Position numbers and translations under genes: made by a program. The notes beneath the pieces are model-generated. The model was not told the origin of the DNA and made no database searches. It saw nothing but the letters and a program-made list of their open reading frames with translations. A DNA stretch of 64,000 bases from the human T2T-CHM13v2.0 reference genome, Homo sapiens, in assembly GCF_009914755.1 (NCBI RefSeq), contig NC_060929.1; one strand, given 5' to 3'. How positions within the stretch are numbered: the stretch's first letter is position 1; every line of letters begins with the position of its first letter. Positions 33,681-35,304 of the stretch are shown one piece after another.

Positions 33681-35088
33681 TTTTATTATTATTATTATAC
33701 TTCAAGTTTTAGGGTACATGTGCACAATGTGCAGGTTAGTTACGTATGTATACATGTGCCATGCTGATGTGCTGCACCCATTAACTCGTCATTTAGCATT
33801 AGGTATAGCCCAAATGCTATCCCTCCCCGCCTCCCCACCCCACATCAGTCCCCAGAGTGTGATGTTCCCCTTCCTGTGTCCATGTGTTCTCATTGTTCAA
33901 TTCCCATCTATGAGTGAGAACATGCGGTGTTTGGTTTTTTGTCCTTGGCGATAGTTTACCGAGAATGATGATTTCCAATTTCATCCATGTCCCTACAAAG
34001 GACATGAACTCATCATTTTTTATGGCTGCATAGTGTTCCATGCTGTATATGTGCCACATTTTCTTAATCCAGCCTATCATTGTTGGACATTTGGGTTGGT
34101 TCCAAGTCTTTGCTATTGTGAATAGTGCCGCAATAAACATACGTGTGCATGTGTCTTTATAGCAGCATGATTTATAGTCCTTTGGGTATATACCCAGTAA
34201 TGGGATGGCTGGGTCAAATGGTATTTCTAGTTCTAGATCCCTGAGGAATCGCCACACTGACTTCCACAATGGTTGAACTAGTTTACAGTCCCACCAACAG
34301 TGTAAAAGTGTTCCTATGTCTCCACATCCTCTCCAGCACCTGTTGTTTCCTGACTTCTTAATGATTGCCATTCTAACTGGTGTGAGATGGTATCTCATTG
34401 TGGTTTTGATTTGCTTTTCTCTGATGGCCAGTGATACTGAGCATTTTTTCATGTGTCTTTTGGCTGCATAAATATCTTCTTTTGAGAAGTGTCTGTTCAT
34501 ATCCTTTGCCCACTTTTTGATGGGGTTGTTTGTTTTTTTCTTGTAAATTTGTTTGAGTTCATTGTAGATTCTAGATATTAGCCCTTTGTCAGATGAGTAG
34601 GTTGCAAAAATTTTCTCCCATTTTGTAGGTTGCCTGTTCACTCTGATGGTAGTTTCTTTTGCTGTGCAGAAGCTCCTTAGTTTAATTAGATCCCATTTGT
34701 CAATTTTGTCTTTTGTTGCCATTGCTTTTGGTGTTTTAGACATGAAGTCCTTGCCCATGCCTATGTCCTGAATGGTAATGACTAGGTTTTCTTCTAGGGT
34801 TTTTACGGTTTTAGGTCTAACGTTTAAGTCTTTAATCCATCTTGAATTAATTTTTGTATAAGGTGTTAGGAAGGGATCCAGTTTCAGCTTTCTACATATG
34901 GCTAGCCAGTTTTCCCAGCACCATTTATTAAATAGGGAATCCTTTCCTCATTGCTTGTTTTTCTCAGGTTTGTAAAAGATTAGATAGTTGTAGATATGCG
35001 GCATTATTTCTGAGGGCTCTGTTCTGTTCCATTGATCTATATCTCTGTTTTGGTACCAGTACCATGCTGTTTTGGTTACTGTAGCCTT
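33681..35088 (-). mobile_element. Young 5'-truncated L1 (L1PA2-like): ORF2 C-terminus plus 3' UTR
   Basis: ORF 33817-34758 is the L1 ORF2 C-terminus ([18 protein letters not shown]); short (TAA)n tail; perfect 15-bp TSD cagtttgtatttttc at 33666-33680 and 35211-35225. Confidence 0.97.
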
Positions 35089-35304
35089 TTACTTTGGCTT
35101 TCAACTTCTCAGAGATGTGGAAAATTTAGAGGATGGTCCATAAAGGAAACAAACTTCATGAGATTGAAAAATACAAACTGTATAGTTTGAAGTCAGGTAC
35201 TCAAACTATACAGTTTGTATTTTTCAATCTCATGAAGTTTGTTTCCTTTATGGACCATCCTCTAAATTTTCCACATCTCTGAGAAGTTGAAAGCCAAAAT
35301 AAAA
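35087..35304. repeat. Inverted repeat: 104-bp arms (35087-35190 and 35201-35304), 10-nt spacer, 1 mismatch
   Basis: Arms compared base by base; the only mismatch is 35092/35299. Confidence 0.97.

What the first reader, a model, noticed from the sequence alone, without database searches (positions are those of the whole stretch)
35087..35304. L1 5' junction contains an inverted copy of its own flank, creating a 218-bp near-perfect palindrome
Seen, reading the minus (L1-sense) strand: flank, TSD (35225-35211), 10 nt of inverted L1 (TATAGTTTGA), G, 20 nt of sense L1 (TACCTGACTTCAAACTATAC), a ~94-bp inverted copy of the flank including a third, inverted TSD (35166-35180), then L1 resuming at AAGGCTACAGTAACC. 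Against my recalled L1 consensus (..AACTATAC-TAC-AAGGCT..) only ~3 nt are lost, with 1-2 nt of microhomology at the joins. The arms match at 103/104 bp. Classic twin priming inverts L1 sequence only; here the inverted material is target DNA embedded inside L1 sequence. Inference: template switching or fold-back synthesis during or after TPRT, so retrotransposition generated a new palindrome that can form a cruciform and may be fragile.
Basis: partly seen in the sequence, partly recalled or inferred. Interest (0 to 1): 0.85.

Follow-up and report, generated by a model that had tools for sequence, protein, structure and literature searches.

The report
Fold-back palindrome at an L1 junction
A truncated L1 retrotransposon in an intron of TMEM167A carries, at its 5' end, a back-to-front copy of the neighbouring host DNA that makes a 218-bp hairpin-forming palindrome, a rare but already described by-product of L1 insertion.

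Summary
Arms 35087-35190 and 35201-35304 match at 103 of 104 positions around a 10-nt spacer. It is the only repeat of this quality in the 64-kb window, and the flank is single-copy in the assembly.

A 5'-truncated minus-strand L1 (33681-35088) has a 15-bp target-site duplication, plus a third, inverted copy of it. Comparison with 29 other L1 copies shows the L1 is interrupted after a 20-nt piece, with only 3-5 nt lost.

One fold-back excursion reproduces 271 of 272 observed bases. It starts from a hypothetical precursor, is primed by an 11-nt inverted repeat, copies 91-93 nt of the nascent strand's own TSD and flank, and returns on a 2-nt microhomology.

The architecture is in print for somatic L1 insertions. 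Nam 2023 reported 4 such events, 52-220 bp. Mendez-Dorantes described inverted duplication at the reciprocal end.

- **Best reading:** fold-back synthesis during integration, about 0.55.
- **Main rival:** a later replicative template switch, about 0.27.
- **Undecided:** arm divergence (1 mismatch against 2.5-4.6 expected) does not separate the two.
- **Untested:** cruciform formation and fragility.
- **Classification:** a new member of a known kind, of moderate interest.

The parts
33666..33680 (.). 3'-side copy of the 15-bp target-site duplication, next to the A-rich L1 tail
   Evidence: Identical 15-mer at 33666-33680 and 35211-35225 (D2, 23). It abuts the T-run and ATT repeats that are the complement of the L1 tail.
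33681..35088 (-). 5'-truncated L1 body: the 3' part of ORF2, the 3' UTR and a short A-rich tail
   Evidence: 24 other genomic L1 copies align over 1,390 nt or more at 94.1-96.7%. A 376-codon open stretch lies at 33817-34947. For the 389-nt query, 2,367 candidates were found and the 40 scored were 97-100% identical.
35087..35165 (.). Left arm, outer part: inverted duplicate of the host flank 35226-35304. Positions 35087-35088 are shared with the L1 (microhomology).
   Evidence: One mismatch, at 35092.
35166..35180 (.). Third copy of the target-site duplication, inverted
   Evidence: Its reverse complement equals the other two copies at 15 of 15 positions.
35180..35199 (-). 20 nt of sense L1, detached from the L1 body. 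Its last 11 nt form one half of the hinge inverted repeat. Position 35180 is shared with the inverted TSD.
   Evidence: It matches the stretch just upstream of the body in other L1 copies. Those copies have TAC (TAT in one) between the two pieces.
35200..35200 (.). Single base with no L1 or target template
   Evidence: On the L1 strand the window has G. 28 of 29 other copies have C at this position.
35201..35210 (+). 10-nt stub of L1 in inverted orientation between the 5' TSD and the sense L1. It resembles a very short twin-priming or snap-back product.
   Evidence: It is the reverse complement of 35181-35190 and reads as L1 sense sequence on the + strand.
35211..35225 (.). 5'-side copy of the target-site duplication
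35226..35304 (.). Original host flank (right arm, outer part). It continues into unique DNA.
   Evidence: The only genomic match of 35089-35330 is this locus and its own inverted copy.

Best explanation
A primate L1 inserted by target-primed reverse transcription into an intron of TMEM167A, on the gene's sense strand. Its 5' junction was resolved abnormally.

**Shown.**
- The element has a 15-bp TSD, an A-rich tail and a 5' truncation.
- Reading the L1 strand, the junction is: flank, TSD, a 10-nt inverted L1 stub, one untemplated base, 20 nt of sense L1, an inverted copy of the TSD plus 79 bp of flank, then the L1 body with only 3-5 nt skipped.

**Inferred.**
- The strand growing from the upstream (reciprocal) end first acquired the 10-nt stub. 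This could be by a very short twin-priming event or by snap-back of the cDNA.
- It then copied the last 20 nt of the first-strand cDNA.
- Its 3' end now carried 11 nt complementary to a site 10 nt upstream in the same strand.
- It folded back and copied itself for 91-93 nt, through the TSD and into flank that was probably exposed by 5' resection.
- It then unwound and re-annealed to the cDNA on a 2-nt AA/TT microhomology, and second-strand synthesis continued.

**Result.** A 218-bp near-perfect palindrome. In TMEM167A pre-mRNA it is predicted to form a hairpin whose stem takes in both 104-nt arms.

About 0.9 of my belief is that a fold-back or template-switch event at this junction made the palindrome. 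About 0.55 is that it happened during integration by this route.
For: - **Anatomy.**
- **L1 continuity and the non-L1 base.** Taken from 29 other copies.
- **Simulation.** A precursor plus one fold-back primed by an 11-nt repeat with a 10-nt loop, copying 91-93 nt and skipping 3-5 nt on return, gives 1 mismatch in 272. Other switch points give 2-5 mismatches.
- **Not a repeat family.** The flank is single-copy.
- **Same architecture in de novo somatic L1 insertions.** 3 events plus 1 combined with an intra-L1 inversion (0.3% and 0.1% of events), with 52-220 bp of extra synthesis (passages and the peer-review file).
- **L1 insertions with inverted duplication at the reciprocal end.** Explained there by self-annealing of a resected 3' overhang (passages).
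- **Yeast breaks.** Fold-back inversions of 2 to about 150 bp arise from a 10-bp inverted microhomology beside the end. They need Pol delta, and the other end captures the product on 0-5 bp of microhomology (passages).
- **Length.** Replicative template switches average 11.6 bp, so 91-93 nt fits the L1-linked size range better.
- **Age.** Arm divergence is compatible with the age of the L1, P(at most 1 mismatch) = 0.09-0.28.
Against: - The timing is not shown. The same product would arise from a later replication error at the same 11-nt repeat.
- The arms are somewhat less diverged than the L1 predicts. One mismatch is observed against 2.5-4.0 expected. Using only the 1,001 sites outside the stretch used to pick the comparison copies (my arithmetic on the list), 3.3-4.6 are expected, P = 0.06-0.16.
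- The route needs several template changes, and none can be seen directly.
- The origin of the 10-nt stub is undetermined.
- No orthologous or second human haplotype could be examined.
- The definition of twin priming is partly recalled, because the original paper was not held.
Confidence: 0.55

Rival explanations
1. Post-integration replicative template switch (Ripley-type quasi-palindrome correction, or the four-point model). The L1 first inserted with a plain junction carrying the 10-nt stub. In a later replication round the nascent strand switched at the 11-nt inverted repeat, copied 91-93 nt of the opposite or its own strand, and returned 3-5 nt downstream.
For: - The product is identical to the one simulated.
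- An 11-nt perfect repeat with a 10-nt loop is the classic substrate for this process, which is known to turn short repeats into long perfect hairpins (abstracts and passages).
- The arms show 1 mismatch against 2.5-4.6 expected if they are as old as the L1 (and my arithmetic). That leans weakly towards a younger palindrome.
Against: - Reported events are mostly 10 bp or shorter, with a mean of 11.56 bp. Per-individual maxima are 97-180 bp, and the longest in complex sequence within the gnomAD set is 90 bp.
- The copied block starts exactly at the L1/TSD junction. The L1-linked class has the matching size range and a measured frequency.
- The divergence test is not significant (P 0.06-0.28).
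Confidence: 0.27
2. Hairpin-capped end opened off-centre, in the manner of P nucleotides. Classical twin priming laid 19 nt of antisense L1 on the upstream end. That 3' end snapped back, filled the TSD gap and was ligated to the 5' end at 35226. A nick about 104 nt from the tip on the other strand then opened the hairpin, and fill-in and joining to the cDNA at 35088 followed.
For: - It gives the observed spacer orientation: 19 nt of contiguous antisense L1 on the + strand at 35181-35199.
- It gives classical twin-priming geometry, because the inverted and sense L1 pieces are separated by only 3-5 nt of L1.
- It could make sense of the target/L1 resemblance at 33647-33665.
Against: - In the required register the snapping-back 3' end has no base pairing at all, because symmetry ends at 35190/35201. 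The main model has 11 paired bases.
- It needs a ligation and then a nick on the 3'-ending strand at 35302-35305. That is 2-4 nt away from the nearest TTTT/A-type site, by my reading.
- No precedent was seen in the passages read.
Confidence: 0.08
3. Assembly or sequencing artefact: a fold-back chimera built into the assembly.
For: Palindromic chimeras are a known library artefact (general knowledge). Only one assembly could be examined.
Against: - The arms differ at one position.
- The copy is embedded between two L1 pieces that are contiguous in L1, with microhomology at both joins and a third TSD. An artefact would not produce that.
- 218 bp is far shorter than the reads of a telomere-to-telomere assembly (general knowledge).
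Confidence: 0.03
4. A pre-existing palindromic element, such as a small DNA transposon, into which the L1 inserted.
For: Short palindromic transposon remnants exist in the window, for example 40675-40808.
Against: - The arm sequence has no other copy in the genome.
- The left arm lies on the L1 side of the 5' junction, between two L1 pieces. It is not beyond the 3' TSD, where a split pre-existing palindrome would lie.
Confidence: 0.01

Closest known systems
Short foldback inversion (inverted duplication) of the 5' upstream target at somatic L1 insertions, 'process C' (Nam et al. 2023, PMC10191854; passages and peer-review file read)
   Same: Canonical TSD and tail, plus an inverted copy of the DNA just upstream of the insertion. 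Extra synthesis of 52-220 bp; here it is 91-93 nt. One of their events also had an intra-L1 inversion, as this one has in miniature.
   Different: Theirs are somatic events in colon clones, described as schematics. This one is an old allele in a reference assembly, resolved to the base. Its hinge is an 11-nt repeat made of L1 sequence, and a 20-nt L1 piece is stranded on the far side of the copy.
[quoted passage not shown]
   Same: The resected 3' overhang of the upstream end self-anneals and primes synthesis. The remodelled end is then joined to the cDNA end.
   Different: Their two examples use 2-bp microhomology within genomic DNA. Here the hinge is 11 nt and is L1-derived, so some L1 copying came before the fold-back.
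Twin priming (Ostertag and Kazazian 2001; recalled, paper not held, cited)
   Same: Inverted L1 sequence lies directly next to the 5' TSD. The stranded 20-mer and the body are nearly adjacent in L1.
   Different: Only 10 nt are inverted, and they overlap the sense piece rather than lying upstream of it. Twin priming does not invert target DNA.
Microhomology-mediated foldback inversions at double-strand breaks in yeast (PMC11724301; abstract and passages read)
   Same: A 10-bp inverted repeat beside the end, synthesis of 2 to about 150 bp, unwinding, and capture by the other end on 0-5 bp of microhomology.
   Different: A yeast HO break, dependent on Pol delta and NHEJ. No retrotransposon is involved, and the enzymes acting at this locus are unknown.
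Short-range template-switch mutations, four-point model (Loytynoja and Goldman 2017, PMC5453318; Loytynoja 2022 preprint; passages read)
   Same: A one-step conversion of a short inverted repeat into a long perfect hairpin, returning close to the point of departure.
   Different: They occur during replication. The mean length is about 12 bp, so 91-93 nt lies in the extreme tail.
Palindromic AT-rich repeats, PATRRs (review PMC7999016; passages read)
   Same: A near-perfect palindrome, similar in total length to PATRR17 (about 200 bp), and intronic like several PATRRs.
   Different: 68% AT against more than 90%, and a 10-nt spacer. No rearrangement is known here. The origin is traceable to an L1 insertion.

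Membership tests
L1 insertion by target-primed reverse transcription | Target-site duplication flanking the element | tested here: met
   15 of 15 identical at 33666-33680 and 35211-35225.
L1 insertion by target-primed reverse transcription | L1 3' end with an A-rich tail at a T-rich nick site | tested here: met
   The tail ends in ATA repeats plus 4 A, like other copies. The nick site reads TTTTTC/AA on the primed strand, which is near the consensus but not identical to it. The consensus is as quoted.
L1 insertion by target-primed reverse transcription | The sequence is L1 | tested here: met
   24 copies align over 1,390 nt or more at 94.1-96.7%. A 376-codon ORF2 remnant is open. No family library was run, and no call gave a subfamily name.
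L1-linked foldback inverted duplication of the upstream target (Nam 'process C'; Mendez-Dorantes class 2) | An inverted copy of the DNA immediately upstream of the insertion, placed between the target and the L1 body | tested here: met
   35087-35180 is the reverse complement of 35211-35304 at 93 of 94 positions.
L1-linked foldback inverted duplication of the upstream target (Nam 'process C'; Mendez-Dorantes class 2) | Size of the extra synthesis (52-220 bp reported) | tested here: met
   91-93 nt copied, against the range quoted.
L1-linked foldback inverted duplication of the upstream target (Nam 'process C'; Mendez-Dorantes class 2) | Formed in the same event as the insertion | not testable with these tools
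   This needs orthologous loci or other haplotypes. The divergence test is inconclusive.
Twin priming | An inverted 5' L1 segment next to the 5' TSD, upstream in L1 of the sense segment | tested here: inconclusive
   A 10-nt inverted stub abuts the TSD, but it overlaps the sense 20-mer instead of lying upstream of it. The definition is recalled.
Replicative template-switch mutation (four-point model) | The new segment is the reverse complement of nearby sequence, and the flanks are collinear | tested here: met
Replicative template-switch mutation (four-point model) | An ancestral allele without the switch exists after the insertion | not testable with these tools
   No primate or other human genome is held.
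PATRR | More than 90% AT and several hundred bp | tested here: not met
   GC 0.32 and 218 bp in total. Criteria are from the passages.
Palindromic DNA-transposon remnant (MITE-like) | Multiple copies in the genome | tested here: not met
   Only the locus itself matches.
Known RNA family (miRNA precursor and others) | Score at or above the Rfam gathering threshold | tested here: not met
   30 matches at E of 1 or less, all below gathering and on both strands. The best scores 105.7 bits against a threshold of 230. These are generic long-hairpin matches.

The most novel reading that the evidence does not exclude
L1 integration with fold-back synthesis is a one-step way to create long, perfect hairpin-RNA loci inside genes.

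This hairpin pairs both 104-nt arms, and the one arm mismatch becomes a G-U pair on the transcribed strand. It sits in the sense strand of a TMEM167A intron. It would be transcribed and processed, either by heavy A-to-I editing or by dicing into small RNAs, giving it a biological life beyond being a scar.

A second, bolder thread concerns the 19 nt of target just beyond the TSD (33647-33665). They resemble the stranded L1 piece in the same register: 12 of 19 positions, including an exact 6-mer at the far end. The window-wide frequency of such a match is about 1 in 1,000. This raises the possibility that L1 RNA annealing to the target across the second-strand nick chose the 5' junction.
Probability: 0.2. 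Interest if true: 0.55.

Novelty: new member of a known kind. Interest (0 to 1): 0.35.

Why it matters
How L1 finishes integration at its 5' end is still debated (passages). That covers second-strand priming, template jumps and the part played by host repair.

De novo events with fold-back copies of the target are rare, about 0.3-0.4% of somatic insertions. So far they have been shown mainly as schematics.

This locus is a base-resolved germline example that preserves three things:
- the hinge, an 11-nt repeat built from L1 sequence;
- one untemplated base;
- both microhomologies.

It therefore constrains the order of template switches.

It also shows that retrotransposition can leave a near-perfect 218-bp palindrome inside an expressed gene, and that such a palindrome has lasted long enough to acquire one arm difference. 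That bears on how well human cells tolerate palindromes of this size, and on how long hairpin RNAs arise. None of these consequences was tested here.

Tried and rejected
- **Known RNA families.** Only sub-threshold generic hairpin matches on both strands. Rejected as a known RNA gene.
- **Repeat family or pre-existing palindrome.** Rejected because the flank is single-copy and the left arm is on the wrong side of the L1.
- **PATRR membership.** The AT content is too low.
- **One-step models without a pre-existing inverted L1 stub (my reasoning).** A single switch from a plain truncated junction predicts the wrong sequence between the inverted TSD and the spacer, so a stub or an equivalent is needed.
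- **Fold-back by the twin-primed strand with strand displacement and no ligation.** Rejected because it predicts the opposite spacer orientation.
- **An alternative return point that keeps the L1 TAC triplet.** It gives 2 mismatches instead of 1. It is less parsimonious but not excluded.
- **Dating.** 27 private substitutions, 17 of them unique, in 1,390 sites compared with 24 copies. The copies were picked by similarity to the first 389 nt, which biases that stretch: only 1 of the 17 unique substitutions lies there. The test does not separate the two timings.
- **Papers not held.** Gilbert 2005 and Ostertag 2001, so older cell-culture descriptions of odd 5' junctions were not checked.
- **Supplement search for TMEM167A in the 1,019-genome SV paper.** 0 of 3 held files. 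This says little, because the tables may not name genes.
- **Literature searches for this locus.** 'TMEM167A' with 'palindrom' found 1 unrelated paper, and with 'inverted repeat' found 0.
- **Genome-wide scan of L1 5' junctions.** Not attempted. The genome is too large to be laid in the script machine. The roughly 4 Mb that could be fetched would be expected to hold fewer than about 2 events at the published rate.

Full report
**1. The observation**

The palindrome is real.
- The repeat finder reports arms 35087-35190 and 35201-35304, 104 nt, 99% complementary, 10 nt apart.
- A script finds a single mismatch, 35092 C opposite 35299 A. The spacer is AGTCAGGTAC, GC is 0.32, there are no CpGs, and symmetry is lost immediately outside the arms.
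- Across the whole 64-kb window, only 5 inverted pairs of 25 nt or more lie within 200 nt of each other. The runner-up has 43-nt arms at 84%.
- The + strand folds as DNA at -117.8 kcal/mol. The - strand folds as RNA at -180.2 kcal/mol. In both cases 0 of 200 dinucleotide shuffles fold as well, and z is about -30.
- The flank is not a repeat family. A 242-nt query (35089-35330) finds only this locus and its own inverted copy in the 3.1-Gb assembly.

**2. What surrounds it**

A 5'-truncated L1 lies on the minus strand at 33681-35088.
- 24 other genomic copies align to it over 1,390 nt or more at 94.1-96.7%.
- A 376-codon remnant of ORF2 is still open.
- The 3' end is an A-rich tail like that of other copies.
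- The 15-mer CAGTTTGTATTTTTC flanks the element at 33666-33680 and 35211-35225. A third copy lies inverted at 35166-35180, and all three are identical.

I fetched 29 other L1 copies. They read without interruption through the point where this element is broken. In them the 20-nt piece is followed by TAC and then the body (29 rows, 28; one copy has TAT and one has an extra base).

Read on the L1 strand, the junction is therefore:
- host flank;
- TSD (35225-35211);
- 10 nt of inverted L1 (35210-35201);
- one base that is not L1 (35200; the window has G where 28 of 29 copies have C);
- 20 nt of sense L1 (35199-35180);
- an inverted copy of the TSD and 79 bp of flank (35180-35087);
- the L1 body.

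**3. A model that reproduces the sequence**

I built a hypothetical precursor inside a script. It consisted of flank, TSD, stub, the odd base, and then uninterrupted L1 taken from locus L006.
- The 3' end of the nascent L1-sense strand, once it has copied the 20-mer, carries 11 nt complementary to a site 10 nt upstream in the same strand.
- Letting it fold back there, copy itself for 91-93 nt and return to the L1 template 3-5 nt further on reproduces 271 of 272 observed bases. The range reflects a 2-nt AA/TT overlap.
- The one miss is 35092. Other switch points give 2-5 mismatches.

So one self-templated excursion explains the whole left arm. What it does not explain is the 10-nt stub, which must have existed first.
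- By my reasoning, a single switch from a plain truncated junction predicts the wrong bases between the inverted TSD and the spacer.
- The stub is either a very short twin-priming product or a snap-back of the first-strand cDNA. I could not tell which.

**4. Sub-variants**

The spacer orientation is informative. The + strand carries 19 contiguous nt of antisense L1 at 35181-35199.
- A fold-back of a twin-primed upstream strand with simple strand displacement predicts the opposite orientation, so I reject it.
- A hairpin-capped end opened by an off-centre nick would give the observed orientation and classical twin-priming geometry. However, its snap-back step has no base pairing at all in the required register, and it needs an unusual nick. 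I give it 0.08.
- The main model has 11 paired bases at the hinge and one untemplated base where the strand jumps to the end of the cDNA. ORF2p template jumping is described in the passages read.

**5. When did it happen?**

Against 24 other copies, this L1 has 27 private substitutions in 1,390 sites (1.94%). Of these, 17 are shared with none of the 24 (1.22%).
- If the arms were as old as the L1, 4.0 or 2.5 arm mismatches are expected. One is seen, giving P(at most 1) = 0.09 or 0.28.
- The copies had been chosen by similarity to the first 389 nt. Using only the remaining 1,001 sites or so gives 22 and 16 substitutions, 4.6 and 3.3 expected mismatches, and P about 0.06 and 0.16 (my arithmetic from the list).
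- The arms are thus somewhat cleaner than expected, but not significantly so. The test does not decide between formation at integration, a later event, or correction between the arms.

**6. What is known**

*L1-linked events.*
- Nam et al. [quoted passage not shown] They attributed it to additional DNA synthesis of about 52-220 bp at the final resolution step.
- In the peer-review file the authors state that this had not been described before.
- Mendez-Dorantes et al. show L1 insertions with inverted duplication of genomic DNA on the reciprocal end, in an experimental clone and in a tumour. Each has 2-bp homology. They explain these by self-annealing of a resected 3' overhang that primes synthesis.

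*Related processes.*
- In yeast, fold-back inversions of 2 to about 150 bp arise at a break from a 10-bp inverted microhomology beside the end. They need Pol delta, and the other end captures the product on 0-5 bp of microhomology.
- These features match the present hinge (11 nt), copy length (91-93 nt) and return microhomology (2 nt).
- The alternative process, short-range replicative template switching, also turns short inverted repeats into long perfect ones. Its events average 11.56 bp. Per-individual maxima are 97-180 bp, and the longest in complex sequence within one data set is 90 bp.

Weighing length, position and the measured frequency of the L1-linked class, I favour formation during integration (0.55, plus 0.08 for the hairpin-opening variant) over a later switch (0.27).

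**7. Membership**

- The locus meets the tested features of a TPRT insertion. It also meets those of the L1-linked fold-back class, except simultaneity, which cannot be tested with the tools at hand.
- It is not a classical twin-priming inversion: 10 nt, overlapping, and target DNA is inverted.
- It is not a PATRR: 68% AT and 218 bp, against more than 90% AT.
- It is not a multi-copy element.
- It is not a known RNA family. All 30 Rfam matches are below gathering, with the best at 105.7 bits against a threshold of 230.

**8. Consequences (inferred, not tested)**

- The palindrome lies in the intron between TMEM167A exons at 37015-37049 and 24672-28979, on the transcribed strand (hub annotation).
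- In the pre-mRNA the single arm mismatch becomes a G-U pair, so the predicted stem pairs the two arms along their whole length.
- Cruciform extrusion, fragility, editing and small-RNA production were not assessed by any search.

**9. Unexplained**

- The 19 nt of target just beyond the 3' TSD (33647-33665) match the stranded L1 piece at 12 of 19 positions in the same register from the TSD, including an exact TACCTG at the far end (pair I2).
- About 0.1% of all 19-mers in the window do as well. About 0.004% do so with the exact 6-mer.
- This may be chance. It could also mean that L1 RNA or cDNA paired with the target across the second-strand nick.

**10. Limits**

- The original twin-priming paper and Gilbert 2005 were not held.
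- Searches for this locus in print found nothing relevant. A search for TMEM167A in the held supplements of the 1,019-genome SV study also found nothing.

**Verdict**

- **Observation:** confirmed.
- **Interpretation:** supported in kind; the timing remains open.
- **Novelty:** a new, unusually well-preserved member of a recently described class.
- **Interest:** 0.35.

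Noticed in passing
window 33647-33665 versus 35181-35199: The target DNA just beyond the 3' TSD resembles the stranded L1 20-mer in the same register. It matches at 12 of 19 positions, with an exact TACCTG at the far end. The window-wide frequency of such a match is about 1e-3, or about 4e-5 with the 6-mer. 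This is either chance or a hint that L1/target pairing set the 5' junction.
   Followed up: partly
window 35671-35995: An Alu-like element (the two halves are 70% alike, D1). It is flanked by a 17-nt direct repeat at 35671-35687 and 35979-35995, matching at 16 of 17 positions, which is probably its target-site duplication. It sits about 370 bp from the palindrome.
   Followed up: no
window 40675-40808: An inverted repeat with 43-nt arms at 84% and a 48-nt spacer. It is the second-best palindrome in the window and lies in a TMEM167A intron. It is possibly a small DNA-transposon remnant. No family name was obtained.
   Followed up: no
window 33817-34947 (minus strand): The truncated L1 keeps a 376-codon open stretch of ORF2, and differs from the majority of 24 related copies at only 27 of 1,390 sites. 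It is therefore a fairly young primate L1. No call gave a subfamily name.
   Followed up: partly
window 35092 / 35299: The only arm mismatch lies 5 nt from the outer end of the copy, close to the point where synthesis returned to the L1 template. It could be a copying error made at the switch rather than a later mutation. On the transcribed strand it is a G-U pair.
   Followed up: no
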